Origin: a virus
Lineage: Duplodnaviria; Heunggongvirae; Uroviricota; Caudoviricetes
Direction: 5' to 3' (one strand)
Length of the DNA stretch: 41,251 nucleotides
Virus record (IMG/VR): IMGVR_UViG_2869976549_000005
Shown one piece after another: positions 5,685 to 39,514 of the stretch. The translations under genes and the position numbers were made by a program. Below the pieces are notes generated by a model. It was not told where the DNA came from, searched no databases, and saw nothing but the letters and a program-made list of their open reading frames with translations. How positions within the stretch are numbered: the first letter of the stretch is position 1; the number at the start of each line of letters is the position of its first letter.

Positions 5685-5748
5685 TGAGGTAGCCTGAGTT
5701 TAACGGACACTCCTTCCTGAAATAGAATGGCATCAGAAGGAGCTAATA

Positions 5749-6051
5749 ATGAGCAGAAAAACCCAACGTTACTCTAAAGAGTTCAAAGCCGAAGCTGTCA
5801 GAACGGTTCCTGAAAATCAACTTTCGATCAGTGAAGGCGCTTCCCGATTATCTCTTCCTGAAGGCACTTTAGGACAATGGGTTACCGCCGCCAGAAAAGG
5901 GCTCGGTACTCCTGGTTCCCGCACGGTGGCTGAACTGGAATCTGAAATTCTGCAACTGCGTAAGGCGTTAAATGAAGCTCGCCTTGAGCGAGATATATTA
6001 AAAAAAGCAACAGCGTATTTTGCACAGGAGTCGCTGAAAAATACGCGTTAA
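5749..6051 (+). CDS. IS600 OrfA (transposase N-terminal HTH component)
   Basis: MSRKTQRYSKEFKAEAVRTV..., 100 aa. Confidence 0.9.
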   Translation: MSRKTQRYSKEFKAEAVRTVPENQLSISEGASRLSLPEGTLGQWVTAARKGLGTPGSRTVAELESEILQLRKALNEARLERDILKKATAYFAQESLKNTR

Positions 6052-6086
6052 TCGAACAATGGCGACAACAATTTCCCATTGAAGCG

Positions 6087-6905
6087 ATGTGTCAGGTATT
6101 TGGTGTATCCAGGAGCGGTTATTACAACTGGGTACAGCATGAACCCTCAGACAGAAAACAAAGTGATGAGCGGCTAAAACTGGAGATTAAGGTGGCACAT
6201 ATCCGCACTCGCGAAACATATGGAACCCGGCGGCTCCAGACGGAGCTGGCAGAGAATGGCATCATTGTTGGTCGTGACCGACTGGCACGTCTTCGTAAGG
6301 AGCTAAGGCTACGCTGTAAGCAGAAACGCAAGTTCAGAGCGACTACGAACTCGAACCACAATCTGCCAGTTGCGCCAAATCTGCTGAACCAGACGTTCGC
6401 TCCTACAGCACCAAATCAGGTCTGGGTGGCGGACCTGACGTATGTTGCCACACAGGAGGGATGGTTGTACCTCGCTGGCATCAAAGATGTTTATACGTGC
6501 GAAATTGTCGGCTACGCCATGGGAGAGCGCATGACAAAAGAGCTGACAGGTAAAGCCCTGTTTATGGCGCTCAGGAGCCAGCGCCCACCTGCCGGGCTAA
6601 TCCACCACTCTGATCGAGGTTCACAGTACTGCGCATACGATTACCGGGTCATACAGGAGCAGTCTGGTCTGAAAACATCAATGTCGCGTAAAGGTAACTG
6701 TTACGACAACGCTCCGATGGAAAGCTTCTGGGGAACGCTGAAAAATGAGAGCCTGAGCCACTATCGTTTTAATAACCGGGATGAAGCCATCTCAGTAATA
6801 CGGGAATACATTGAGATTTTCTACAATCGTCAGCGTCGTCACTCTCGTCTGGGGAATATCTCCCCGGCAGCCTTCAGGGAAAAATATCATCAGATGGCTG
6901 CTTAA
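6087..6905 (+). CDS. IS600 OrfB (transposase catalytic DDE component; expressed as OrfAB fusion by frameshift)
   Basis: 272-aa ORF with IS3-family integrase-core sequence. Confidence 0.9.
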   Translation: MCQVFGVSRSGYYNWVQHEPSDRKQSDERLKLEIKVAHIRTRETYGTRRLQTELAENGIIVGRDRLARLRKELRLRCKQKRKFRATTNSNHNLPVAPNLLNQTFAPTAPNQVWVADLTYVATQEGWLYLAGIKDVYTCEIVGYAMGERMTKELTGKALFMALRSQRPPAGLIHHSDRGSQYCAYDYRVIQEQSGLKTSMSRKGNCYDNAPMESFWGTLKNESLSHYRFNNRDEAISVIREYIEIFYNRQRRHSRLGNISPAAFREKYHQMAA

Positions 6906-6948
6906 AAAAAGAACAAATGGTAGTGTCCGCTATTGCCAGTACACCTCA

Positions 6949-20587: not shown

Positions 20588-20983
20588 TCACATCTCGTAT
20601 GTAATGGAATAAGTCAGATCCGCAGAGCTCCATAACGCCATATCGTCATCACGACGATACTCATAGCCCTGCGTAACCATCGTGGTAATCAGTCCTGCCA
20701 GTGCAGGGATCGCAGTCATCGCCGGATAAATCCGGCTTTCCATCCACTGATCGAGCTCCGAATCAGGTACCTGTGCCGGTAAAAACACCTCAATATGCAG
20801 TGTGGCCCGCCAGGTATCTGCATCCAGCTCTTCACCGGTATACTCTGCATCCGTCAGATAAACCGCGATCGCAGGAAAATCCTCTTCGTCAAAAACAACG
20901 GGGCGACCATCAAACAGCGTCGCCCCGTGTTCATGCTGCTCGAGTGCATCCAGCACTGCGGCACGAATGTCAGTGTGTTTCAT
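20588..20983 (-). CDS. U: minor tail protein U (tail terminator)
   Basis: 131 aa, position between V and Z. Confidence 0.85.
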
Positions 20984-21555
20984 CGTTTTATCGCAATCCT
21001 CAGTTGTTGTTTCAGCGCGTATGCCAGTTCTTTAGGCAGGCGTTCACGCCGGATACGGTCAACATTCTCATCAAATGCCTGTTTCAGTGGGGCCGCCATC
21101 GGGATTTTCACCACCTGAATGGGAAGGCGATTACGCTTTTTCCTTCCCTTGTCGTCATTGCCCTCCTCATATCTGGCCTGGGGAAGACGTTGCATAACAT
21201 GCCAGCGCCCATTATTTAATCGCTGGATAAATGCCCGCTGATAACGATGCTGACCGGCTTTGAGTATGCTGTTCGGACGACGCCCCAGCATTCTGATCCC
21301 CAGCTTAATCACAGGGAGATCACCGCGGTTAACGATAATTCTGGCATTCGGATTTCTGACCGTCGCCCGTTTCAGTCTGGACCGTTCCTTTACCAGTTTC
21401 CGTCTCACCCTGGTTTCCCGGGCAACCTGTGACGAAGACTGATTAATCGCCGTTGTGGCCACGCGGTTAATGGTCATTGCAGAAGCAGCCGGAATGGCGT
21501 TTTTACGAACCCGGCTCAGATTGTCAATCGCCTGATCAAGCCCTTTTATCGCCAT
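20980..21555 (-). CDS. Z: tail completion protein Z
   Basis: 191 aa MAIKGLDQAIDNLSRV... Confidence 0.8.
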   Translation of the reverse strand: MAIKGLDQAIDNLSRVRKNAIPAASAMTINRVATTAINQSSSQVARETRVRRKLVKERSRLKRATVRNPNARIIVNRGDLPVIKLGIRMLGRRPNSILKAGQHRYQRAFIQRLNNGRWHVMQRLPQARYEEGNDDKGRKKRNRLPIQVVKIPMAAPLKQAFDENVDRIRRERLPKELAYALKQQLRIAIKR

Positions 21556-21644
21556 AATTCACCCTGCGTTTATCGTCGCCGGTTAACTGCGGGTGGTTGC
21601 CCACGGTTGAGCCAGAGATAACAGCTGCCCCCGTCATCCGGAGA
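21556..21644 (-). pseudogene. probable 3' remnant of the gene upstream of Z (FII-like), cut by IS21
   Basis: Open frame ends at 21556 immediately before Z; upstream part replaced by the IS21 end. Confidence 0.3.
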
Positions 21645-21745
21645 TGTCAGCGCCAGTGATATAAGACGGTAATTCGCCATTTGGATTGTCCGCTCCACCC
21701 AACATGTTGTTTCCTTAAGGTTCTCACACCAGAAAGGACATCAAC

Positions 21746-23298
<1,553 letters not shown>

Positions 23299-23357
23299 TA
23301 GCCTGAGTTTAACGGACACTCCTTCCTGAAATAGAATGGCATCAGAAGGAGCTAATA

Positions 23358-23660
23358 ATGAGCAGAAAAACCCAACGTTACTCTAAAGAGTTCAAAGCCG
23401 AAGCTGTCAGAACGGTTCTTGAAAATCAACTTTCGATCAGTGAAGGCGCTTCCCGATTATCTCTTCCTGAAGGCACTTTAGGACAATGGGTTACCGCCGC
23501 CAGAAAAGGGCTCGGTACTCCTGGTTCCCGCACGGTGGCTGAACTGGAATCTGAAATTCTGCAACTGCGTAAGGCGTTAAATGAAGCTCGCCTTGAGCGA
23601 GATATATTAAAAAAAGCAACAGCGTATTTTGCACAGGAGTCGCTGAAAAATACGCGTTAA
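23358..23660 (+). CDS. IS600 OrfA
   Basis: 100 aa, identical family to 5749-6051. Confidence 0.9.
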   Translation: MSRKTQRYSKEFKAEAVRTVLENQLSISEGASRLSLPEGTLGQWVTAARKGLGTPGSRTVAELESEILQLRKALNEARLERDILKKATAYFAQESLKNTR

Positions 23661-23695
23661 TCGAACAATGGCGACAACAATTTCCCATTGAAGCG

Positions 23696-24514
23696 ATGTG
23701 TCAGGTATTTGGTGTATCCAGGAGCGGTTATTACAACTGGGTACAGCATGAACCCTCAGACAGAAAACAAAGTGATGAGCGGCTAAAACTGGAGATTAAG
23801 GTGGCACATATCCGCACTCGCGAAACATATGGAACCCGGCGGCTCCAGACGGAGCTGGCAGAGAATGGCATCATCGTTGGTCGTGACCGACTGGCACGTC
23901 TTCGTAAGGAGCTAAGGCTACGCTGTAAGCAGAAACGCAAGTTCAGAGCGACTACGAACTCGAACCACAATCTGCCAGTTGCGCCAAATCTGCTGAACCA
24001 GACGTTCGCTCCTACAGCACCAAATCAGGTCTGGGTGGCGGACCTGACGTATGTTGCCACACAGGAGGGATGGTTGTACCTCGCTGGCATCAAAGATGTT
24101 TATACGTGCGAAATTGTCGGCTACGCCATGGGAGAGCGCATGACAAAAGAGCTGACAGGTAAAGCCCTGTTTATGGCGCTCAGGAGCCAGCGCCCACCTG
24201 CCGGGCTAATCCACCACTCTGATCGAGGTTCACAGTACTGCGCATACGATTACCGGGTCATACAGGAGCAGTCTGGTCTGAAAACATCAATGTCGCGTAA
24301 AGGTAACTGTTACGACAACGCTCCGATGGAAAGCTTCTGGGGAACGCTGAAAAATGAGAGCCTGAGCCACTATCGTTTTAATAACCGGGATGAAGCCATC
24401 TCAGTAATACGGGAATACATTGAGATTTTCTACAATCGTCAGCGTCGTCACTCTCGTCTGGGGAATATCTCCCCGGCAGCCTTCAGGGAAAAATATCATC
24501 AGATGGCTGCTTAA
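23696..24514 (+). CDS. IS600 OrfB
   Basis: 272 aa. Confidence 0.9.
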   Translation: MCQVFGVSRSGYYNWVQHEPSDRKQSDERLKLEIKVAHIRTRETYGTRRLQTELAENGIIVGRDRLARLRKELRLRCKQKRKFRATTNSNHNLPVAPNLLNQTFAPTAPNQVWVADLTYVATQEGWLYLAGIKDVYTCEIVGYAMGERMTKELTGKALFMALRSQRPPAGLIHHSDRGSQYCAYDYRVIQEQSGLKTSMSRKGNCYDNAPMESFWGTLKNESLSHYRFNNRDEAISVIREYIEIFYNRQRRHSRLGNISPAAFREKYHQMAA

Positions 24515-24714
24515 AAAAAGAACAAATGGTAGTGTCCGCTATTGCCAGTACACCTCAGTTAGTCAGCTTCTTATCGAACTTGAGCTGAAGGATCTTAAAA
24601 CAAGTTTCCATAGTGCTCCTGGATTTTCTCTTTTTGGACATTGACGTCTCCACTGGTTTAAACACGGCAATGGAGACTGTGGTGAAAAGAGTTAATTCCC
24701 GGAGTGACTGGCGA

Positions 24715-24847
24715 ATTCCAATCAATGATCGGAAGTATGCCAAATCGTGATCGATTGTGATGCCAAACTGTGATCGGAGATGGATGCCAAATCATGATCG
24801 ATTCGAATGCCAAACTGCGATCGATTCAGATGCCATTTTGCAATCAG
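24715..24847. repeat. tandem array of about six 22-24-bp direct repeats, each with a GATC site (consensus ATGCCAAAYNRYGATCGATT)
   Basis: Contiguous units at 24737, 24760, 24784, 24807 plus degenerate copies at 24715 and 24830; no spacers. Confidence 0.7.
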
Positions 24848-24947
24848 CGCCAGAACAGCAGCTGACAGGCCGTATTTGATTTTTGCGCTCATGGATATTT
24901 ATCAGGATGCTACCAATGAAAGATACTGGAAAGCCAACTGCAAAAAG

Positions 24948-25262
24948 CTAACAACCCGTAATCGAGTTATCAGAACTGTTAATTTTTATGGTATACCGCG
25001 CCTCTGAACAGGGGCGCGTTTCTGGCAACAGCTCGTCCCCTTCACATAACCCGGCAGCAACATCCAGGAAGACCTGTCTGATGCTCCTTCTGGCTGCTGC
25101 CTCATAAAACTCCAGCGCGGCACCTTCAACACGGTCCAGCGAGATGTCCAGGTCAAAAATTTCACCGTCAAAGCGTTTTTTGTCCCGTAACGCTAAAGTT
25201 ACCGTAACTTTATTCTCAAAATTGCGGATCCCTTTCACAATCAGTTCATAGTTTTGAGTCAT
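24948..25262 (-). pseudogene. DUF1327-like (YdfO/YbcV-type) prophage protein, probably C-terminally corrupted
   Basis: N-terminus MTQNYELIVKGIRNFENKVTVTLALRDKKRFDGEIFDLD... recalled as the YdfO/YbcV family; C-terminal 25 aa read through a hairpin/terminator. Confidence 0.35.
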
Positions 25263-25266
25263 TGAA

Positions 25267-25482
25267 TTACTCTCCCCGTGCAGCCTTACGACGGTCCTCT
25301 CTGATTTTGAAATACAGGTTAGTCAGATATGTCAGCAGCCCAAACAGCAGACTCCCCAGCACGCCTATTGCCGCCCACTGAGACGGGGAAACCCTGTCCA
25401 GCAACTGCAGGAACCAGTAGCCCGTTCCCACCGCTGACGTGGTGTATGACACACCTGTTGTGATTTTTTCCATCTGGTACAT
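25267..25482 (-). CDS. phage-21-type class II holin (pinholin S21) with dual start (71-aa and 68-aa forms)
   Basis: [13 protein letters not shown]...[50 protein letters not shown]; two TMDs; Met1 and Met4 dual-start pattern. Confidence 0.75.
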
Positions 25483-25632
25483 ACCCCGTCTCCCGTTATC
25501 CGGAAGCTGACAACAATAAAAAAAGCCACCAGTTAAGTACTGATGGCTCTGATAACTCATGCAGGCATCTCAGACGACCCACTGACACTACCGGTGAGTT
25601 TAACGATACCTTCCATTTGGCTGGCTCACTTT

Positions 25633-27486
25633 TTATGATGATGCCGGTGCATTTATCTCCAGCACCAGACTTTCTATCTCAACGCCATACGCTGCATTTT
25701 TGGTAATATCCGTCAGCGTCAGCGCATTCAGCCCCAGTGTCAGACTGTCTTTTATGACCTGGAATGCCGGGCCAGCCACTCCATTCAGTTTCGGAGTAAC
25801 CGTGGCACTGCCGGCGGTGAACACCAGCTCCAGCGTCAGCCAGTCGTTACTGTAATTCCCGAACTCGCCCAACTTTGTGTTTCCTGCTTTCTTGTGATGC
25901 ATCAGATTCAGTTTGCCGTCTGTGGTCTGGGTGAAGAACGACATCAGGAACGGGTTACCAGTCCCGGTCATCGCCACGACGTCAGGTAACGCTACATCGG
26001 TATACAGATAAATTCCCAGACCGAACTGGTTGTTGGTCAGTGCGCCTGACAGTCGAAACTTACAGCTCAGTCTGCCACCCCGTGTCAGCAGGGAGACTGC
26101 GTCATCCACCGGGCGCGTCAGGGACCAGGCTTTATTGCTCTGCTTGGTGATCTTAAATACACCATCTGACAACTGAACTCCGCCATTCTTAATGCTCCAG
26201 CCCTGCGCAGCAGCGTCTCCGGCTGTCGGCAACAGGGAGATTGTGCGTATGGATGCATCTTCAGACGGCCCCGATGGCGTGTCGCCGCCGGGCGAGGGTT
26301 TGATTTCCGGTGCCTTACCACTAATGAAGGCTAAGGTGCGACCGGCTACGTTCAGAATAGCAGTTGCCATACGATCGGGAATAATGCCACGACGCGCCCA
26401 TGAGCTGAAATGCGTCGGGCGATTTGATGATACCCAGTTTTTGTTCGTTCGGGATGCCGAACCGTAATAACCAGACCCGGCAATATCAGGATCTTCTGAC
26501 GGGTTGTTTGTCGGTGTATTAACTCCGCTACCATCGGTCATAAAGGGAACAAAATAAATCTGCTGGGATTCTTTACCTTTATATGCACCATATACCACTT
26601 CATATTGCGTACCGTGTTCTTGTTTCCACGCGTATGTCGTGTCGCCACAAATCCAGGGGACTGATGCCGGACTTCCACCGTGACACTGCGCCGCCAGCCC
26701 GGCAAGGTCAGCACGGAACTGCTGTACCATTGCAAGAAATGCTGCTGGCTGCTGGGCGTAACTGGCATTCGTCATATCGAATTCCCCCTGCATCCAGCAT
26801 ATCGCCAGCAAAACGTTTTTCGGGTTTTTCTGCAATGCTGCCTTCGTGCGGAAAAGCAGATCCTGATATAACGGCTTACCCACTCCCCAGCGAGCCGAAT
26901 CCTGACTGGCCCCCGTGGACTCGCTGAATGTCCCCTCCGTGCCCTGGGTGAATGCCGAACCACCACGACAGCATGGTACCAGCAGGATCCCCGCATTATT
27001 AGGGATATACGGAAGCAGTTTTTTGGCAATATGTAAGCCCTGTCCGACACAGCCGTACTGCCCTTTGCTCAGGTCAGCCCGGGGATGGTTAATCGTACTC
27101 ATATCCTGAACATCATGCAGACAATGGTCAGCAGGAATGATGTCGTTAAATACGCATACTTCACCACCGGGAGTCACTGTGTTACGACGGGCCAGTTGCT
27201 TAATGCGCGGATGGGGCGCATCGTATGAATCCGGAAGCGGAAGACCTTCACCGTAAGCCATGGCATTGGATTGCCCGGCCAGTACGATGACGTAGTACCA
27301 CTCCGGCTCAGTTGCACCACTGACGACCACATCACCTTCTGCTGCAATCGCCTGCATCAGGGTATAAGGGGTTATGGCCACCGGACTACCAAACGGCTGC
27401 CAGCCCTCCTTCAGTTTTTGTGTCAGTCGTTTCGCAAGGTCTGACGGCGATGCCGCCCTGACCACGTCATAGTGTTTAAATGCCAT
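25633..27486 (-). CDS. nanS: prophage NanS-p-like sialate O-acetylesterase (SGNH hydrolase with N-terminal DUF1737-like region), 617 aa
   Basis: GQSNAMAY esterase motif; size and position (upstream of the holin, downstream of the tRNA cluster) as in Stx-converting phages. Confidence 0.6.
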   Translation of the reverse strand: MAFKHYDVVRAASPSDLAKRLTQKLKEGWQPFGSPVAITPYTLMQAIAAEGDVVVSGATEPEWYYVIVLAGQSNAMAYGEGLPLPDSYDAPHPRIKQLARRNTVTPGGEVCVFNDIIPADHCLHDVQDMSTINHPRADLSKGQYGCVGQGLHIAKKLLPYIPNNAGILLVPCCRGGSAFTQGTEGTFSESTGASQDSARWGVGKPLYQDLLFRTKAALQKNPKNVLLAICWMQGEFDMTNASYAQQPAAFLAMVQQFRADLAGLAAQCHGGSPASVPWICGDTTYAWKQEHGTQYEVVYGAYKGKESQQIYFVPFMTDGSGVNTPTNNPSEDPDIAGSGYYGSASRTNKNWVSSNRPTHFSSWARRGIIPDRMATAILNVAGRTLAFISGKAPEIKPSPGGDTPSGPSEDASIRTISLLPTAGDAAAQGWSIKNGGVQLSDGVFKITKQSNKAWSLTRPVDDAVSLLTRGGRLSCKFRLSGALTNNQFGLGIYLYTDVALPDVVAMTGTGNPFLMSFFTQTTDGKLNLMHHKKAGNTKLGEFGNYSNDWLTLELVFTAGSATVTPKLNGVAGPAFQVIKDSLTLGLNALTLTDITKNAAYGVEIESLVLEINAPASS

Positions 27487-27950: not shown

Positions 27951-28084
27951 ACATAGCATTTAACGGGGAACCTGTTTTCTGCAGTAAAAAGGCCCACCGG
28001 AGCGGATGGGCCTGGAAGGATGAGGTAGCCTGAGTTTAACGGACACTCCTTCCTGAAATAGAATGGCATCAGAAGGAGCTAATA

Positions 28085-28387
28085 ATGAGCAGAAAAACCC
28101 AACGTTACTCTAAAGAGTTCAAAGCCGAAGCTGTCAGAACGGTTCTTGAAAATCAACTTTCGATCAGTGAAGGCGCTTCCCGATTATCTCTTCCTGAAGG
28201 CACTTTAGGACAATGGGTTACCGCCGCCAGAAAAGGGCTCGGTACTCCTGGTTCCCGCACGGTGGCTGAACTGGAATCTGAAATTCTGCAACTGCGTAAG
28301 GCGTTAAATGAAGCTCGCCTTGAGCGAGATATATTAAAAAAAGCAACAGCGTATTTTGCACAGGAGTCGCTGAAAAATACGCGTTAA
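28085..28387 (+). CDS. IS600 OrfA
   Basis: 100 aa. Confidence 0.9.
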   Translation: MSRKTQRYSKEFKAEAVRTVLENQLSISEGASRLSLPEGTLGQWVTAARKGLGTPGSRTVAELESEILQLRKALNEARLERDILKKATAYFAQESLKNTR

Positions 28388-28422
28388 TCGAACAATGGCG
28401 ACAACAATTTCCCATTGAAGCG

Positions 28423-29241
28423 ATGTGTCAGGTATTTGGTGTATCCAGGAGCGGTTATTACAACTGGGTACAGCATGAACCCTCAGACAGAAAACAAAGT
28501 GATGAGCGGCTAAAACTGGAGATTAAGGTGGCACATATCCGCACTCGCGAAACATATGGAACCCGGCGGCTCCAGACGGAGCTGGCAGAGAATGGCATCA
28601 TCGTTGGTCGTGACCGACTGGCACGTCTTCGTAAGGAGCTAAGGCTACGCTGTAAGCAGAAACGCAAGTTCAGAGCGACTACGAACTCGAACCACAATCT
28701 GCCAGTTGCGCCAAATCTGCTGAACCAGACGTTCGCTCCTACAGCACCAAATCAGGTCTGGGTGGCGGACCTGACGTATGTTGCCACACAGGAGGGATGG
28801 TTGTACCTCGCTGGCATCAAAGATGTTTATACGTGCGAAATTGTCGGCTACGCCATGGGAGAGCGCATGACAAAAGAGCTGACAGGTAAAGCCCTGTTTA
28901 TGGCGCTCAGGAGCCAGCGCCCACCTGCCGGGCTAATCCACCACTCTGATCGAGGTTCACAGTACTGCGCATACGATTACCGGGTCATACAGGAGCAGTC
29001 TGGTCTGAAAACATCAATGTCGCGTAAAGGTAACTGTTACGACAACGCTCCGATGGAAAGCTTCTGGGGAACGCTGAAAAATGAGAGCCTGAGCCACTAT
29101 CGTTTTAATAACCGGGATGAAGCCATCTCAGTAATACGGGAATACATTGAGATTTTCTACAATCGTCAGCGTCGTCACTCTCGTCTGGGGAATATCTCCC
29201 CGGCAGCCTTCAGGGAAAAATATCATCAGATGGCTGCTTAA
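28423..29241 (+). CDS. IS600 OrfB
   Basis: 272 aa. Confidence 0.9.
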   Translation: MCQVFGVSRSGYYNWVQHEPSDRKQSDERLKLEIKVAHIRTRETYGTRRLQTELAENGIIVGRDRLARLRKELRLRCKQKRKFRATTNSNHNLPVAPNLLNQTFAPTAPNQVWVADLTYVATQEGWLYLAGIKDVYTCEIVGYAMGERMTKELTGKALFMALRSQRPPAGLIHHSDRGSQYCAYDYRVIQEQSGLKTSMSRKGNCYDNAPMESFWGTLKNESLSHYRFNNRDEAISVIREYIEIFYNRQRRHSRLGNISPAAFREKYHQMAA

Positions 29242-29474
29242 AAAAAGAACAAATGGTAGTGTCCGCTATTGCCAGTACACCTCAGGATAGCGGTCATGTG
29301 ATGCCGGTTTCCCGGTAACTCAGCACCGGTATCTGAGTCAACGTTTTCTCTACTGGGTCATTTCCGATACGCCCTGCCTGCTGACAGGCTTTCATCACAT
29401 CTGAAAATATAGCACCCTGACTGATACTGTAGTACCTAAGGTTCCAGAAACTGTGATGTATCCGGCACAGAAAA

Positions 29475-29728: not shown

Positions 29729-29805
29729 TGGCGCGTTGTACTGGATTCGAACCAGTGACCGATTGCTTAGAAGGCAATTGCTCTGTCCGGCTGAGCTAAC
29801 AACGC
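29729..29805 (-). tRNA. argO: tRNA-Arg (anticodon UCU), 77 nt, CCA encoded
   Basis: Cloverleaf deduced by hand: acceptor GCGUUGU/ACAACGC, anticodon loop CUUCUAA, T-loop GGTTCGAATCC. Confidence 0.8.
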
Positions 29806-29843: not shown

Positions 29844-31181
29844 CATAAGCGCTAACTTAAGGGTTGTGGTATTACGCCTGATATGATTTAACGTGCCGAT
29901 GAATTACTCTCACGATAACTGGTCAGCAATTCTGGCCCATATTGGTAAGCCCGAAGAACTGGATACTTCGGCACGTAATGCCGGGGCTCTAACCCGCCGC
30001 CGCGAAATTCGTGATGCTGCAACTCTGCTACGTCTGGGGCTGGCTTACGGCCCCGGGGGGATGTCATTACGTGAAGTCACTGCATGGGCTCAGCTCCATG
30101 ACGTTGCAACATTATCTGACGTGGCTCTCCTGAAGCGGCTGCGGAATGCCGCCGACTGGTTTGGCATACTTGCCGCACAAACACTTGCTGTACGCGCCGC
30201 AGTTACGGGTTGTACAAGCGGAAAGAGATTGCGTCTTGTCGATGGAACAGCAATCAGTGCGCCCGGGGGCGGCAGCGCTGAATGGCGACTACATATGGGA
30301 TATGATCCTCATACCTGTCAGTTCACTGATTTTGAGCTAACCGACAGCAGAGACGCTGAACGGCTGGACCGATTTGCGCAAACGGCAGACGAGATACGCA
30401 TTGCTGACCGGGGATTCGGTTCGCGTCCCGAATGTATCCGCTCACTTGCTTTTGGAGAAGCTGATTATATCGTCCGGGTTCACTGGCGAGGATTGCGCTG
30501 GTTAACTGCAGAAGGAATGCGCTTTGACATGATGGGTTTTCTGCGCGGGCTGGATTGCGGTAAGAACGGTGAAACCACTGTAATGATAGGCAATTCAGGT
30601 AATAAAAAAGCCGGAGCTCCCTTTCCGGCACGTCTCATTGCCGTATCACTTCCTCCCGAAAAAGCATTAATCAGTAAAACCCGACTGCTCAGCGAGAATC
30701 GTCGAAAAGGACGAGTAGTTCAGGCGGAAACGCTGGAAGCAGCGGGCCATGTGCTATTGCTAACATCATTACCGGAAGATGAATATTCAGCAGAGCAAGT
30801 GGCTGACTGTTACCGTCTGCGATGGCAAATTGAACTGGCTTTTAAGCGGCTCAAAAGTTTGCTGCACCTGGATGCTTTGCGTGCAAAGGAACCTGAACTC
30901 GCGAAAGCGTGGATATTTGCTAATCTACTCGCCGCATTTTTAATTGACGACATAATCCAGCCATCGCTGGATTTCCCCCCAGAAGTGCCGGATCCGAAAA
31001 GAAGAACTAACTCGTTGTGGAGAATAACAAAAATGGTCATCTGGAGCTTACAGGTGGCCATTCGTGGGACAGTATCCCTGACAGCCTACAAAACGCAATT
31101 GAAGAACGCGAGGCATCGTCTTAACGAGGCACCGAGGCGTCGCATTCTTCAGATGGTTCAACCCTTAAGTTAGCGCTTATG
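29844..31181 (+). mobile_element. IS186 (IS4 family), 1338 bp, inserted at a GGGG-N7-CCCC site with ~12-bp target duplication
   Basis: Termini CATAAGCGCTAACTTAAGGGTTG...CAACCCTTAAGTTAGCGCTTATG; GGGACTTGAACCC duplicated on both sides. Confidence 0.9.
29893..31173 (+). CDS. IS186 transposase
   Basis: MNYSHDNWSAILAHIGKPEELDTSARNAG... 426-aa ORF. Confidence 0.9.
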   Translation: MPMNYSHDNWSAILAHIGKPEELDTSARNAGALTRRREIRDAATLLRLGLAYGPGGMSLREVTAWAQLHDVATLSDVALLKRLRNAADWFGILAAQTLAVRAAVTGCTSGKRLRLVDGTAISAPGGGSAEWRLHMGYDPHTCQFTDFELTDSRDAERLDRFAQTADEIRIADRGFGSRPECIRSLAFGEADYIVRVHWRGLRWLTAEGMRFDMMGFLRGLDCGKNGETTVMIGNSGNKKAGAPFPARLIAVSLPPEKALISKTRLLSENRRKGRVVQAETLEAAGHVLLLTSLPEDEYSAEQVADCYRLRWQIELAFKRLKSLLHLDALRAKEPELAKAWIFANLLAAFLIDDIIQPSLDFPPEVPDPKRRTNSLWRITKMVIWSLQVAIRGTVSLTAYKTQLKNARHRLNEAPRRRILQMVQPLS

Positions 31182-31251: not shown

Positions 31252-31327
31252 TGGTGGCCCTTGCTGGATTTGAACCAGCGACCTGGCGATTATGAGTCGC
31301 TCGCTCTCACCACTGAGCTAAAGGGCC
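31252..31327 (-). tRNA. ileZ: tRNA with anticodon CAU, ileX/ileZ-like (tRNA-Ile2 type), 76 nt
   Basis: GGCCCUUUAGCUCAGUGG...anticodon loop CUCAUAA...GGUUCAAAUCC...CCA; resembles E. coli ileX rather than initiator or elongator Met. Confidence 0.7.
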
Positions 31328-31367: not shown

Positions 31368-32426
31368 TCATCCGTTCTGGCTGACTAAATCCTGTACTTC
31401 CCGAACCGTCTGCTCAAAACGTTCAGTCTCCAGCTCAACGCCAATTGCACGACGCCCGAGCGCCAGTGCCGCTTTCACTGTCGAACCCAACCCCATGAAA
31501 AAATCTGCAATCAGGTCACCCGGACGACTGCTAGCGCTGATTATCTGCTGCAGCATTTCTGCCGGTTTTTCGCACGGATGTTTCCCGGGATAGAACTGCA
31601 CCGGTTTATGCGTCCACACATCGGTATACGGCACCTGCACCGTCACGCCAAAATACCGCCGCAGATGTTTATATTCACTCAGCAGCTCCGCATACTGCCG
31701 GTTCAGTGAGGTATACGTATCCACCAGCTGGTGGTGGAGCTTTTCCAGTTCACCACGCCGATGCTTCTCTTCTGCCACCCGGGCAAACAGCGCCTGTAAT
31801 TTCAGATAATCGCTTTCATTCGGCAACTGCCACTGACCGGCACTGAACCAGTGCGACACCATGTTTTTCTTTCCTGTGGCATCTGCAATCTGTTTTGCCG
31901 TTATCCCCAGGGCAGCTCGCGCATCACGAAAGTAAGAAATCAGCGGGGCCATCACATGCTGTTTCAGTGCACTGCCCTTCGCCGCATACCCGGCATCTTT
32001 CGGACGATACGGCCCCTGATAATGTTCCGCGAACAGAATGCGCTCTGTGGCGGGGAAATACGCCCGCAGGCTTTCCTTGTTGCATCCGTTCCAGCGTCCG
32101 GACGGCTTCGCCCAGATAATATGGTTCAGCACACTGAAGCGTTCACGCATCATGATTTCGATATCAGATGCCAGGCGATGACCACAGAACAGGTAAAGAC
32201 TTCCGGCAGGTTTCAGCACCCGCCAGAACTGCGCCAGACACTGGTCCAGCCACTTCAGGTAATCATCGTCGCCCTTCCACTGGTTATCCCAGCCCTCAGG
32301 CTTCACTTTAAAGTACGGCGGGTCCGTGACTATCAGGTCAACAGAATTTTCGGGTAACGACCGGATAAATTCCAGGCAGTCGGCGTTGATTAACTCACAA
32401 CTGGATATTTTTACAGTATTAAGCAT
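31368..32426 (-). CDS. orphan DNA methyltransferase (amino-methyltransferase; DPPY motif N-terminal, FxGxG SAM motif C-terminal)
   Basis: DLIVTDPPY near the N-terminus and DFFMGLGST near the C-terminus; no adjacent restriction endonuclease gene. Confidence 0.8.
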   Translation of the reverse strand: MLNTVKISSCELINADCLEFIRSLPENSVDLIVTDPPYFKVKPEGWDNQWKGDDDYLKWLDQCLAQFWRVLKPAGSLYLFCGHRLASDIEIMMRERFSVLNHIIWAKPSGRWNGCNKESLRAYFPATERILFAEHYQGPYRPKDAGYAAKGSALKQHVMAPLISYFRDARAALGITAKQIADATGKKNMVSHWFSAGQWQLPNESDYLKLQALFARVAEEKHRRGELEKLHHQLVDTYTSLNRQYAELLSEYKHLRRYFGVTVQVPYTDVWTHKPVQFYPGKHPCEKPAEMLQQIISASSRPGDLIADFFMGLGSTVKAALALGRRAIGVELETERFEQTVREVQDLVSQNG

Positions 32427-38250: not shown

Positions 38251-38293
38251 TGAGGTGTACTGGCAATAGCGGACACTACCATTTGTTCTTTTT

Positions 38294-39112
38294 TTAAGCA
38301 GCCATCTGATGATATTTTTCCCTGAAGGCTGCCGGGGAGATATTCCCCAGACGAGAGTGACGACGCTGACGATTGTAGAAAATCTCAATGTATTCCCGTA
38401 TTACTGAGATGGCTTCATCCCGGTTATTAAAACGATAGTGGCTCAGGCTCTCATTTTTCAGCGTTCCCCAGAAGCTTTCCATCGGAGCGTTGTCGTAACA
38501 GTTACCTTTACGCGACATTGATGTTTTCAGACCAGACTGCTCCTGTATGACCCGGTAATCGTATGCGCAGTACTGTGAACCTCGATCAGAGTGGTGGATT
38601 AGCCCGGCAGGTGGGCGCTGGCTCCTGAGCGCCATAAACAGGGCTTTACCTGTCAGCTCTTTTGTCATGCGCTCTCCCATGGCGTAGCCGACAATTTCGC
38701 ACGTATAAACATCTTTGATGCCAGCGAGGTACAACCATCCCTCCTGTGTGGCAACATACGTCAGGTCCGCCACCCAGACCTGATTTGGTGCTGTAGGAGC
38801 GAACGTCTGGTTCAGCAGATTTGGCGCAACTGGCAGATTGTGGTTCGAGTTCGTAGTCGCTCTGAACTTGCGTTTCTGCTTACAGTGTAGCCTTAGCTCC
38901 TTACGAAGACGTGCCAGTCGGTCACGACCAACGATGATGCCATTCTCTGCCAGCTCCGTCTGGAGCCGCCGGGTTCCATATGTTTCGCGAGTGCGGATAT
39001 GTGCCACCTTAATCTCCAGTTTTAGCCGCTCATCACTTTGTTTTCTGTCTGAGGGTTCATGCTGTACCCAGTTGTAATAACCGCTCCTGGATACACCAAA
39101 TACCTGACACAT
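38294..39112 (-). CDS. IS600 OrfB
   Basis: 272 aa. Confidence 0.9.
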   Translation of the reverse strand: MCQVFGVSRSGYYNWVQHEPSDRKQSDERLKLEIKVAHIRTRETYGTRRLQTELAENGIIVGRDRLARLRKELRLHCKQKRKFRATTNSNHNLPVAPNLLNQTFAPTAPNQVWVADLTYVATQEGWLYLAGIKDVYTCEIVGYAMGERMTKELTGKALFMALRSQRPPAGLIHHSDRGSQYCAYDYRVIQEQSGLKTSMSRKGNCYDNAPMESFWGTLKNESLSHYRFNNRDEAISVIREYIEIFYNRQRRHSRLGNISPAAFREKYHQMAA

Positions 39113-39147
39113 CGCTTCAATGGGAAATTGTTGTCGCCATTGTTCGA

Positions 39148-39450
39148 TTAACGCGTATTTTTCAGCGACTCCTGTGCAAAATACGCTGTTGCTTTTTTTA
39201 ATATATCTCGCTCAAGGCGAGCTTCATTTAACGCCTTACGCAGTTGCAGAATTTCAGATTCCAGTTCAGCCACCGTGCGGGAACCAGGAGTACCGAGCCC
39301 TTTTCTGGCGGCGGTAACCCATTGTCCTAAAGTGCCTTCAGGAAGAGATAATCGGGAAGCGCCTTCACTGATCGAAAGTTGATTTTCAGGAACCGTTCTG
39401 ACAGCTTCGGCTTTGAACTCTTTAGAGTAACGTTGGGTTTTTCTGCTCAT
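39148..39450 (-). CDS. IS600 OrfA
   Basis: 100 aa. Confidence 0.9.
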   Translation of the reverse strand: MSRKTQRYSKEFKAEAVRTVPENQLSISEGASRLSLPEGTLGQWVTAARKGLGTPGSRTVAELESEILQLRKALNEARLERDILKKATAYFAQESLKNTR

Positions 39451-39514
39451 TATTAGCTCCTTCTGATGCCATTCTATTTCAGGAAGGAGTGTCCGTTAAA
39501 CTCAGGCTACCTCA

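What the first reader, a model, noticed from the sequence alone, without database searches (positions are those of the whole stretch)
24715..24847. Array of six contiguous ~23-bp repeats, each carrying a GATC, where terminase/cos functions would be expected
Seen: six tandem units of consensus ATGCCAAAYNRYGATCGATT with no spacers, located after the remnant of the lysis region and before IS600. Inference: possible iterons (replication or partition protein binding), terminase small-subunit binding repeats (pac/cosB-like), or a cluster of Dam-methylation-sensitive regulatory sites; the prophage encodes its own DNA methyltransferase at 31368-32426. The function is not established.
Basis: partly seen in the sequence, partly recalled or inferred. 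Interest (0 to 1): 0.5.

Follow-up and report, generated by a model that had tools for sequence, protein, structure and literature searches.

The report
Broken end of insertion sequence ISSso4
The 23-bp repeat array is the left end of a known jumping gene, ISSso4 of the IS21 family, whose repeats are docking sites for its own transposase. It is an ordinary, inactive fragment inside a decayed prophage, not a phage packaging, replication or partition site.

Summary
The array is real: six head-to-tail units of 22-24 bp lie at 24715-24842. Only five carry GATC; the sixth is the element's tip.

It is not a phage feature. Window 24558-24843 is 100% identical to the istA-proximal (left) end of the catalogued IS21-family element ISSso4. 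That element occurs in about 2,100 of 5,426 complete E. coli genomes, next to istA wherever the match reaches it.

Complete copies (2,638 bp) have:
- TG...CA tips;
- three inverted copies of the same unit at the other end;
- istA and istB;
- 5-6 bp target duplications.

In 35 distinct units from eight genera, CGATC is invariant and TTGGCAT nearly so, with variable spacers. This is the two-box, 23-bp-spaced site that cryo-EM of IS5376 shows IstA binding through two helix-turn-helix domains.

Here the element is a relic. It inserted into codon 18 of the prophage endolysin gene. IS600 then cut it at istA codon 18, and the far side of that IS600 lies inside a truncated IS21. The prophage's distal lysis, terminase and head genes are gone.

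Verdict: already known, low interest. The one open point is whether Dam methylation of the GATC box modulates IstA binding. Relatives in Pseudomonas and Sinorhizobium lack GATC, and one in Burkholderia keeps it.

The parts
24558..24842 (-). 285-bp relic of ISSso4 (IS21 family). It holds the left terminal inverted repeat region, the istA leader and the first 18 codons of istA.
   Evidence: 100% identity over 286 bp to complete ISSso4 copies, e.g. NZ_CP049201 (L001 4001-4286), which RefSeq annotates as 'IS21-like element ISSso4 family transposase'. No other part of ISSso4 is in the window.
24715..24842 (-). The repeat array, which is the L-TIR: six direct units of 22-24 bp. Each is read as one IstA binding site built from a TTGGCAT box and a CGATCA box.
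   Evidence: TRF period 23. Unit layout. Box conservation across 35 distinct units. Inverted copies lie at the other end of complete elements.
24830..24842 (-). Terminal unit (L1). It reads 5'-TGCAAAATGGCAT on the minus strand, carries the TG/CA tip where cleavage and strand transfer occur, and has no GATC.
   Evidence: Identity to complete copies stops here. Different flanks adjoin the same tip in L001, L002, L003, L005, L006, L007, L009, L010 and L013. The junction with the endolysin gene is shown.
24807..24829 (-). Unit 2. Minus strand: CTGAATCGATCGCAGTTTGGCAT. GATC at 24819.
24784..24806 (-). Unit 3. Minus strand: TCGAATCGATCATGATTTGGCAT. GATC at 24796.
24760..24783 (-). Unit 4, 24 bp. Minus strand: CCATCTCCGATCACAGTTTGGCAT. 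GATC at 24772.
24737..24759 (-). Unit 5. Minus strand: CACAATCGATCACGATTTGGCAT. GATC at 24749.
24715..24736 (-). Unit 6, the innermost and degenerate one. Minus strand: ACTTCCGATCATTGATTGGAAT. GATC at 24727. Relatives have TTGGCAT in place of TTGGAAT.
24612..24714 (-). istA leader. It contains a conserved hairpin (24646-24677) and an upstream in-frame ATG (24641-24639) ten codons before the annotated istA start.
   Evidence: Inverted repeat I6. Alignment and consensus fold of 10 relatives.
24558..24611 (-). First 18 codons of istA (METCFKILQLKFDKKLTN), cut off by IS600.
   Evidence: istA start in L001 at 4054 maps to window 24611. ORF listing.
23294..24557 (+). Complete IS600 (1264 bp) that truncates ISSso4. 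Its flanking triplets differ (GAC on the left, GTT on the right), so it has no target duplication and the junction is recombinant.
Evidence: IS3-family OrfA and OrfB. 99.5-99.8% identity to an unannotated ~1.27-kb segment in Stx phage records. Ends and flanks.
21645..23293 (+). Truncated IS21 proper: left end, istA (390 aa) and the first 128 codons of istB. It abuts the other side of IS600.
   Evidence: 100% identity to 'IS21-like element IS21 family' copies. NCBIfam IS21 transposase and IstB models.
24843..24892 (-). 5' remnant of the prophage endolysin gene R (codons 1 to about 17-18, MSAKIKYGLSAAVLALIA). This is the target that ISSso4 inserted into.
   Evidence: 100% identity to the phage mEp460 endolysin 5' end.

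Best explanation
The array is the left terminal inverted repeat region (L-TIR) of insertion sequence ISSso4, a catalogued IS21-family element.

In an intact element, each ~23-bp unit is a binding site for the transposase IstA. By homology with IS5376, the two N-terminal helix-turn-helix domains of one IstA monomer contact two conserved boxes of a unit, here TTGGCAT and CGATCA. The catalytic monomers sit on the outermost unit, whose TG/CA tip is cleaved and joined to the target. Structural monomers sit on the second unit. The two ends are synapsed as a right-handed crossing, and IstB delivers the target, giving a 5-6 bp duplication. The four further units at the left end probably load extra IstA or regulate istA expression; their role is unknown.

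In this window the array is a dead relic. ISSso4 inserted into codon 18 of the prophage endolysin gene. It then lost everything beyond istA codon 18 through an IS600-associated rearrangement. Only one end and no transposase gene remain.

Shown here: identity, boundaries, architecture, conservation and genomic context. Inferred by homology and not tested here: IstA binding and the roles of individual units.
For: 1. Window 24558-24843 is 100% identical to the istA-proximal end of complete ISSso4 copies. 2,109 of 5,426 complete E. coli genomes contain a match (this count includes matches to the 60-bp endolysin part of the query), and istA is annotated under the match wherever it reaches that far.
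2. Complete copies are 2,638-2,650 bp and begin TGCAAAATGGCAT. They end with the inverted TGCGTATTCCGCT followed by further inverted units (3 sites in ISSso4, 4 in a Serratia relative). They encode IstA (NF033546, 287 bits against a cut-off of 160) and IstB (NF038214, 252 bits against 200). They are flanked by 5-6 bp direct duplications: TTCCT, GCAGAT and GGCAT.
3. Nine relatives from Serratia, Klebsiella, Erwinia, Rahnella, Buttiauxella and Enterobacter have IstA 79-92% identical. Seven show the same tip and 4, 5 or 6 units; L012 has a diverged tip but the same unit array, and L004 is cut inside the array by its contig end. Two further matches were not informative: L008 lacks the array upstream of istA, and L011 is an internal fragment.
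4. In 35 distinct units, CGATC is invariant and TT-GG-AT is 86-100% conserved. The 4-5 positions between the boxes and the 5-8 between units vary, which is the signature of a bipartite protein-binding site.
5. More distant relatives (IstA 38-55% identical) in Sodalis, Vibrio, Pseudoalteromonas, Pseudomonas, Burkholderia, Sinorhizobium and E. coli (ISEc12) all carry arrays of roughly 22-24 bp period at both ends, with lineage-specific box sequences.
6. Literature: IS21-family TIRs consist of multiple direct repeats (L1/L2, R1/R2). Each repeat has two conserved boxes, contacted by HTH-1 and HTH-2 of IstA. Repeats are spaced 23 bp apart, two complete repeats are required for integration, and 5-bp duplications are typical (PMC10122671 sections 6 and 10; PMC11208146).
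Against: No experiment on ISSso4 IstA binding was found, and none can be done here. The assignment of boxes to HTH domains and the register of a 'site' are by analogy with IS5376, whose boxes are GC-rich and different in sequence.

Six units at the left end is more than the two engaged in the solved transpososome, so the model does not explain units 3-6.

In this window the second end and both genes are missing, so the target duplication cannot be checked for this particular copy.
Confidence: 0.96

Rival explanations
1. The units are Dam-methylation-sensitive regulatory sites. GATC methylation in every unit would control protein binding, for example by coupling ISSso4 transposition to passage of the replication fork, as GATC sites do in the ends or promoters of IS10, IS50 and IS903. 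This would be an added layer on the transposase-site explanation, not a replacement for it.
For: Five GATC sites lie in 128 bp, against 1.7 per kb in the window. CGATC is invariant in 35 of 35 distinct units. The GATC box is retained in relatives from Enterobacterales, Vibrio and Pseudoalteromonas with only 50-55% IstA identity, while the second box has changed. ISEc12 of E. coli also has GATC in each unit. These hosts carry Dam, which is my own knowledge. By analogy with IS5376, the box would be read through major-groove contacts, where N6-methyladenine lies.
Against: The GATC 'cluster' follows simply from one GATC in a repeated consensus, so it counts as a single observation. Conservation extends to the flanking C and A (CGATCA), as expected for protein recognition. 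ISBmu3 of Burkholderia glumae uses a TGATCA box, and that host lacks Dam as far as I know; this was not checked here. ISPre4 of Pseudomonas and a Sinorhizobium element use CGGCCAC and CGCCCCC at the same position. The terminal unit, where chemistry occurs, has no GATC. No paper in the searched library links the IS21 family to Dam. The prophage methyltransferase is not of the Dam family.
Confidence: 0.2
2. The array is a prophage cis-acting site: replication or partition iterons, or binding repeats for the terminase small subunit (pac or cosB-like).
For: Only position supports this. The array follows the lysis genes where a lambdoid phage would carry Rz and then cos and terminase. The TGATCG motifs loosely recall the hexanucleotide TGATCA/G elements of the P1 pac site, which is my own knowledge.
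Against: The phage sequence stops exactly at 24843, where endolysin identity ends at codon 18. Everything from 24842 inward is ISSso4 at 100% identity. In phage records the array occurs only as 'transposase, partial' fragments. Elsewhere it lies in chromosomes, plasmids, conjugative elements and pathogenicity islands, next to istA or as IS scars. No terminase, Rep or Par gene is adjacent here or in any relative examined.
Confidence: 0.01
3. The repeat is coding sequence (a repetitive peptide in the 56-aa ORF 24722-24892) or a chance low-complexity repeat.
For: An ATG-initiated ORF of 56 codons runs through the array on the minus strand.
Against: The ORF is a chimera: 18 endolysin codons read on into the IS end. 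A period of 22-24 bp is not a multiple of three, so the units are translated in changing frames. The ORF has no PHROG hit. No shuffle gave an exact consensus match, against four observed.
Confidence: 0.01

Closest known systems
ISSso4 (IS21 family; named in RefSeq annotation as 'IS21-like element ISSso4 family')
   Same: The DNA is identical (100% over 286 bp): tip, six units, leader and the first 18 istA codons.
   Different: Only the left 285 bp survive here. The remainder of istA, all of istB and the right end are missing, removed in association with IS600.
IS5376 / IS21 terminal inverted repeats (L1-L2, R1-R2) as defined biochemically and by cryo-EM (PMC10122671, PMC11208146)
   Same: TG/CA tips, direct repeats spaced about 23 bp, two conserved boxes per repeat separated by variable bases, inverted copies at the other end, 5-bp target duplication, and an IstA plus IstB gene pair.
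   Different: The box sequences differ: TTGGCAT and CGATCA here, against GC-rich CS1 and CS2 in IS5376. ISSso4 has six units at the left end and three at the right, where the studied substrates have two. ISSso4 IstA is 511 aa, against 390 aa for IS21 IstA.
Multi-site transposon ends of Tn7 (TnsB sites) and phage Mu (L1-L3, R1-R3)
   Same: Several transposase-binding repeats lie at each end, in unequal numbers at left and right. Only the terminal ones are engaged in the catalytic core, and the role of the extra sites is unresolved (comparison drawn in PMC10122671).
   Different: The transposase families and site sequences are different. ISSso4 units are strictly contiguous, without the spacers or host-factor sites seen in the Mu left end.
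Dam-regulated IS ends (IS10, IS50, IS903)
   Same: GATC lies inside the sequence that the transposase must recognise.
   Different: In those elements one or two GATC sites at one end or in the promoter have a proven effect. Here GATC is in five of six left units and all three right sites, and no effect has been tested. Related IS21-family elements work without GATC.

Membership tests
IS21-family terminal inverted repeat (L-TIR) | The element terminates in 5'-TG...CA-3'. | tested here: met
   The left tip is TGCAAAATGG and the right tip is TGCGTATTCC, each read inward. The tip stays constant while the flanks differ in nine or more independent copies.
IS21-family terminal inverted repeat (L-TIR) | Multiple direct repeats within each end, about 23 bp apart, present in inverted orientation at the other end. 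| tested here: met
   Six units of 22-24 bp at the left end. Three sites at the right end of ISSso4 and four in a Serratia relative. Inverted-repeat pairs I1, I2, I4 and I5 link the two ends. The 23-bp spacing is stated in PMC10122671.
IS21-family terminal inverted repeat (L-TIR) | Each repeat has two conserved boxes separated by variable bases, serving as HTH-1 and HTH-2 contacts. | tested here: met
   CGATC is conserved in 35 of 35 units and TTGGCAT at 86-100% per position. The positions between them have information content of 0.75-1.1 bits.
IS21-family terminal inverted repeat (L-TIR) | Adjacent istA (DDE transposase) followed by istB (AAA+ helper). | tested here: met
   Complete copies: NF033546 at 287 bits (cut-off 160) and NF038214 at 252 bits (cut-off 200). 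In the window only istA codons 1-18 remain, identical in DNA sequence.
IS21-family terminal inverted repeat (L-TIR) | Short target-site duplication (4-8 bp, typically 5). | tested here: met
   L001 TTCCT, L002 GCAGAT, L005 GGCAT. This cannot be tested for the window copy because its right end is absent.
IS21-family terminal inverted repeat (L-TIR) | The units are bound by IstA and are required for transposition. | not testable with these tools
   Shown for IS5376 only (PMC10122671). Inferred here by homology.
ISSso4 (the specific element) | Near-identity of nucleotide sequence to the named element. | tested here: met
   100% over 286 bp to copies that RefSeq annotates as ISSso4 family.
Replication or partition iterons | Tandem repeats next to the gene of the initiator or centromere-binding protein that binds them, within an origin or par locus. 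| tested here: not met
   The neighbours are istA, IS600 and an endolysin stub. No Rep or Par gene is adjacent here or in relatives.
Phage pac / cosB terminase-binding repeats | Located in or beside the terminase small-subunit gene of a phage, and conserved with that phage module. | tested here: not met
   Phage identity ends at 24843. The array travels with IS21-family genes in non-phage contexts. There are no terminase genes between the lysis and tail genes in the window.
Dam-regulated transposon end | GATC lies within the transposase binding site or promoter. | tested here: met
   GATC is in five of six left units and in all three right-end sites. It is invariant in 35 units.
Dam-regulated transposon end | Transposase binding or transposition frequency depends on the methylation state. 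| not testable with these tools
   No data exist. No paper was found linking the IS21 family to Dam. Relatives without GATC exist.

The most novel reading that the evidence does not exclude
In the ISSso4 lineage, the invariant GATC inside every IstA-binding unit might make transpososome assembly sensitive to Dam methylation, for example active only on hemimethylated ends just after replication. The surplus inner units (3-6) might act as a methylation-gated loading platform or as an autoregulatory sink for IstA. This would be the first Dam-controlled IS21-family element and would give a function to the 'extra' repeats that current structures leave unexplained.
Probability: 0.15. Interest if true: 0.35.

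Novelty: already known. Interest (0 to 1): 0.06.

Why it matters
It matters little beyond correct annotation. The array should be masked as an IS21-family (ISSso4) end and not flagged as a candidate phage packaging or replication site.

Locally, it documents how nested IS insertions (ISSso4 into the endolysin gene, IS600 into ISSso4 and into IS21) accompanied loss of the prophage's distal lysis, terminase and head genes. This decay is typical of IS-rich Shigella and E. coli lineages.

The one modest open question is why this subgroup carries six left-end sites, each with a GATC core, when the solved IS21-family transpososome uses two.

Tried and rejected
- Sigma-70 promoter and intrinsic terminator scan of 24500-24950: nothing found on either strand. 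There is therefore no support for an istA promoter inside the array at that threshold.
- Rest of ISSso4 or of the endolysin gene elsewhere in the window: ISSso4 is absent beyond the 286 bp. The endolysin remainder was not searched for separately.
- Literature searches for 'IS21 family' with 'multiple repeated sequences' gave 0 papers, and for IS21 with Dam methylation gave no relevant paper. The ISSso4 search returned only papers that mention the name one or two times (occurrence counts); I did not open them.
- Simple inversion between the two IS600 copies that lack target duplications (23294-24557 and 38251-39514): the flanking triplets do not fit, so the rearrangement partner lies outside the window.
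- Prophage methyltransferase as a Dam-type enzyme acting on the array: rejected. It is PF01555, YhdJ/CcrM-like.
- Coding-repeat reading of the 56-aa ORF: rejected as a chimeric read-through whose period is not a multiple of 3.
- Not used because unnecessary: structure prediction, Rfam, covariance models, and viral or metagenome scans.

Full report
**1. The observation**

The array is real. Tandem Repeats Finder reports a period-23 array at 24737-24835 (score 90) and a period-47 reading at 24712-24823 (score 136). The direct-repeat finder gives the same register.

Six units lie head to tail at 24715-24736, 24737-24759, 24760-24783, 24784-24806, 24807-24829 and 24830-24842. None of 100 dinucleotide-preserving shuffles gave any match.

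Two details need correcting:
- GATC occurs in five units (24727, 24749, 24772, 24796, 24819), not six. The last unit reads ATGCCATTTTGCA.
- Bases 24843-24847 are not part of the repeat.

**2. What it is**

A megablast of 24556-24900 against complete E. coli genomes shows that 24558-24843 is 100% identical to the DNA immediately upstream of, and running into, istA of elements annotated 'IS21-like element ISSso4 family'. Matches occur in 2,109 of 5,426 genomes, on chromosomes and plasmids. That count includes matches to the endolysin end of the query. A BLAST of a complete copy against the window finds only this 286-bp piece.

From 24840 upward the sequence is 100% identical to the 5' end of the endolysin gene of lambdoid phage mEp460 and is close to endolysins of Stx phages. 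A three-way alignment places the junction at 24840-24843. The endolysin reading frame (MSAKIKYGLSAAVLALIA) is interrupted after codon 18 by 5'-TGCAAAATGGCAT, the tip of ISSso4.

The 56-codon ORF that runs through the array is therefore a chimeric read-through and not a gene.

**3. Anatomy of the intact element**

In complete copies (L001, L002, L005) the element is 2,638-2,650 bp long. Read inward, the left end is TGCAAAATGGCAT followed by five further units. The right end is TGCGTATTCCGCT, then CTATTCGATCACGGATTGGCAT, CGAAGTTCGATCAGCGATTCGCAT and CCATTCGATCA. These are the same units in inverted orientation.

The copies are flanked by direct duplications of 5-6 bp: TTCCT, GCAGAT and GGCAT. 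Between the ends lie istA (511 aa; NF033546, 287 bits, cut-off 160; rve and Mu-transposase C-terminal domains) and istB (251 aa; NF038214, 252 bits, cut-off 200; PF01695).

If a site is framed as [TTGGCAT, 5-8 variable bases, CGATCA], both ends contain a whole number of sites: six on the left (the innermost degenerate in ISSso4) and three on the right. The same framing gives four and three sites in ISPre4. This register is my inference.

**4. Comparative evidence**

A scan of one genome per species found eleven loci; nine of them bear on the array. They come from Serratia, Klebsiella, Erwinia, Rahnella, Buttiauxella and Enterobacter, with IstA 79-92% identical. Seven show the same tip. The number of left-end units varies:
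- four in Buttiauxella (L009);
- five in Rahnella (L010) and Enterobacter asburiae (L013);
- six in the others.

L012 has a diverged tip but the same kind of array. L004 is cut inside the array by the end of its contig. L008 lacks the array upstream of istA, and L011 is an internal fragment.

This variation is expected for contiguous repeats that gain and lose copies.

Across 35 distinct units, the pentamer CGATC is invariant and TTGGCAT is conserved at 86-100% per position. The four or five bases between them and the spacer to the next unit vary freely.

More distant relatives (38-55% IstA identity) were also examined. ISSoEn3 of Sodalis, elements of Vibrio tapetis and Pseudoalteromonas rubra, ISEc12 of E. 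coli, ISBmu3 of Burkholderia glumae, ISPre4 of Pseudomonas putida and a Sinorhizobium meliloti element all have arrays of roughly 22-24 bp period at both ends. The box sequences have co-diverged: CCGATCAC, GAGATCAC, TGATCAC, CCGGCCAC and CGCCCCC.

The array is thus a family-wide, transposase-linked feature. Six units is at the upper end of what I saw (4-6 on the left, 2-4 on the right).

**5. How it works**

This part rests on established knowledge, and only the final comparison is inference. For IS5376, the published work states the following:
- IS21-family TIRs are composed of multiple direct repeats (L1/L2, R1/R2).
- IstA needs two complete repeats to integrate.
- Each repeat has two conserved regions separated by variable bases.
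- HTH-1 and HTH-2 of each IstA monomer read these two regions through the major groove.
- Catalytic monomers occupy the terminal repeat and structural monomers the second one.
- The repeats are spaced 23 bp apart, which suits the right-handed crossing of the two ends.
- IstB is required for strand transfer, and 5-bp duplications are typical.

These points come from PMC10122671 (sections 6 and 10) and PMC11208146. The ISSso4 array matches each sequence-level feature.

Binding of ISSso4 IstA to these units, and the role of units 3-6, are inferred and not shown. The papers themselves note that the function of additional terminal repeats in related systems such as Tn7 remains open.

**6. Local history**

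On the minus strand the prophage reads in this order:
- methyltransferase (31368-32426);
- tRNA-Met and tRNA-Arg;
- a 617-aa SASA/DUF1737 protein (25633-27486);
- holin (25267-25560);
- DUF1327 (24948-25262);
- endolysin codons 1-18.

The IS cluster follows, and then tail completion (20980-21555), tail terminator, major tail and tape-measure genes. The rest of the endolysin gene, Rz, the terminase genes and the head genes are missing.

The cluster consists of the ISSso4 left-end relic (24558-24842, minus strand), a complete IS600 (23294-24557) and IS21 proper truncated in istB (21645-23293, plus strand).

This IS600 copy has different flanking triplets (GAC and GTT). Two other copies in the window have proper 3-bp duplications, AAT and GGA. 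The junction is therefore recombinant. It was most likely produced by recombination between, or deletion from, IS600 copies, one in ISSso4 istA and one in IS21 istB.

With one end and no transposase gene, the array here is non-functional. Similar orphan left-end scars with four or five units occur in other E. coli, beside IS66 in a tellurite-resistance island (L016) and near the pap operon (L017).

**7.

Iterons and terminase sites are excluded by the boundary mapping and by the array's constant association with IS21-family genes rather than phage, Rep or Par genes.

The proposed connection to the prophage methyltransferase fails. That enzyme is a PF01555 N6_N4 methylase resembling YhdJ and CcrM, not a Dam-family enzyme.

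Dam sensitivity remains a legitimate but untested overlay, and the evidence points both ways:
- For it, GATC is the invariant core of one box in this lineage. It persists in relatives from Vibrio, Pseudoalteromonas and Sodalis even though the other box has changed.
- Against it, the many GATCs are one consensus feature repeated, and the conserved block is CGATCA rather than GATC alone.
- Also against it, the Burkholderia element keeps a TGATCA box in a host that lacks Dam as far as I know, which I did not check here. The Pseudomonas and Sinorhizobium elements use GGCC and GCCCC there.
- The terminal unit lacks GATC.
- I found no paper linking the IS21 family with Dam.

**8. Verdict**

This is a known feature of a catalogued element, present here as an inactive fragment. 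Novelty: already known. Interest: low (0.06). The most novel reading not excluded is Dam-gated IstA binding, or a regulatory role for the surplus units. I give it about 15% probability, and it would be of moderate specialist interest if true.

Noticed in passing
window 21645-23293 (+): A second IS21-family element, IS21 proper. It is 100% identical to copies annotated 'IS21-like element IS21 family', with an intact 390-aa istA and an istB cut after codon 128 by IS600. Its left end carries no GATC-containing units.
   Followed up: partly
window 5685-6948 (+), 23294-24557 (+), 28021-29284 (+), 38251-39514 (-): Four full-length IS600 copies (1264 bp, 99.8-100% identical to one another). Two have 3-bp target duplications (AAT, GGA). 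The other two (23294 and 38251) do not, which implies IS600-mediated rearrangements. A simple inversion between those two copies does not fit the flanks.
   Followed up: partly
window 20980-25560: The prophage lacks the 3' part of the endolysin gene, Rz, the terminase genes and the head genes. The lysis genes (holin, DUF1327, endolysin stub) are joined through the IS cluster directly to the tail completion, tail terminator and major tail genes.
   Followed up: partly
window 24612-24714 (-), hairpin 24646-24677: The istA leader of ISSso4 holds a 9-10 bp hairpin kept in 10 relatives (one compensatory pair and several G-U changes). A possible outer helix pairs CTCCGGG with the Shine-Dalgarno region CCAGGAG of istA. 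This could sequester the ribosome-binding site in read-through transcripts, but covariation is too sparse to decide.
   Followed up: partly
window 24611-24641 (-): Two in-frame ATGs lie ten codons apart at the start of istA (MSKKRKSRST-METCFK...), and both are conserved in relatives. IS21 is known, from my own knowledge, to make a full-length transposase and a slightly shorter 'cointegrase' from alternative in-frame starts. ISSso4 may do the same.
   Followed up: no
window 24722-24892 (-): This 56-codon ORF is a chimera of 18 endolysin codons fused to read-through of the IS end. It has no family hit.
   Followed up: yes
window 31368-32426 (-): The prophage DNA methyltransferase is PF01555 N6_N4_Mtase. 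Its best NCBIfam similarity is to the YhdJ-type adenine methyltransferase and to CcrM, below their cut-offs. It is not a Dam-family enzyme, and its target sequence is unknown.
   Followed up: partly
window 29729-29805 (-) and 31252-31327 (-): tRNA-Arg(TCT) and tRNA-Met(CAT) genes lie within the prophage late-regulatory region, as in Stx-type lambdoid phages. They flank a 426-aa ORF (29893-31173, +) of unknown function that matches phrog_4555.
   Followed up: no
L016 2490-2606; L017 2500-2690: Orphan ISSso4-like left-end scars with 4-5 units and no istA occur in other E. coli. One is cut by an IS66-family element beside terW, the other lies downstream of papX. They are unannotated in RefSeq.
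   Followed up: partly
L019 about 1380-1480; L020 about 130-200: In the Vibrio tapetis and Pseudoalteromonas rubra relatives, the left-end array is followed by two units in the opposite orientation (for example CCGAAATGGGCGATCGG), forming an internal inverted pair between the array and istA. ISSso4 does not have this. Its function is unknown.
   Followed up: no
L006 and L007 (Serratia fonticola plasmid pSR07_2): Two copies of an ISSso4 relative sit on one plasmid with four right-end units and no matching target duplications. This suggests recombination between the copies or a composite arrangement.
   Followed up: no
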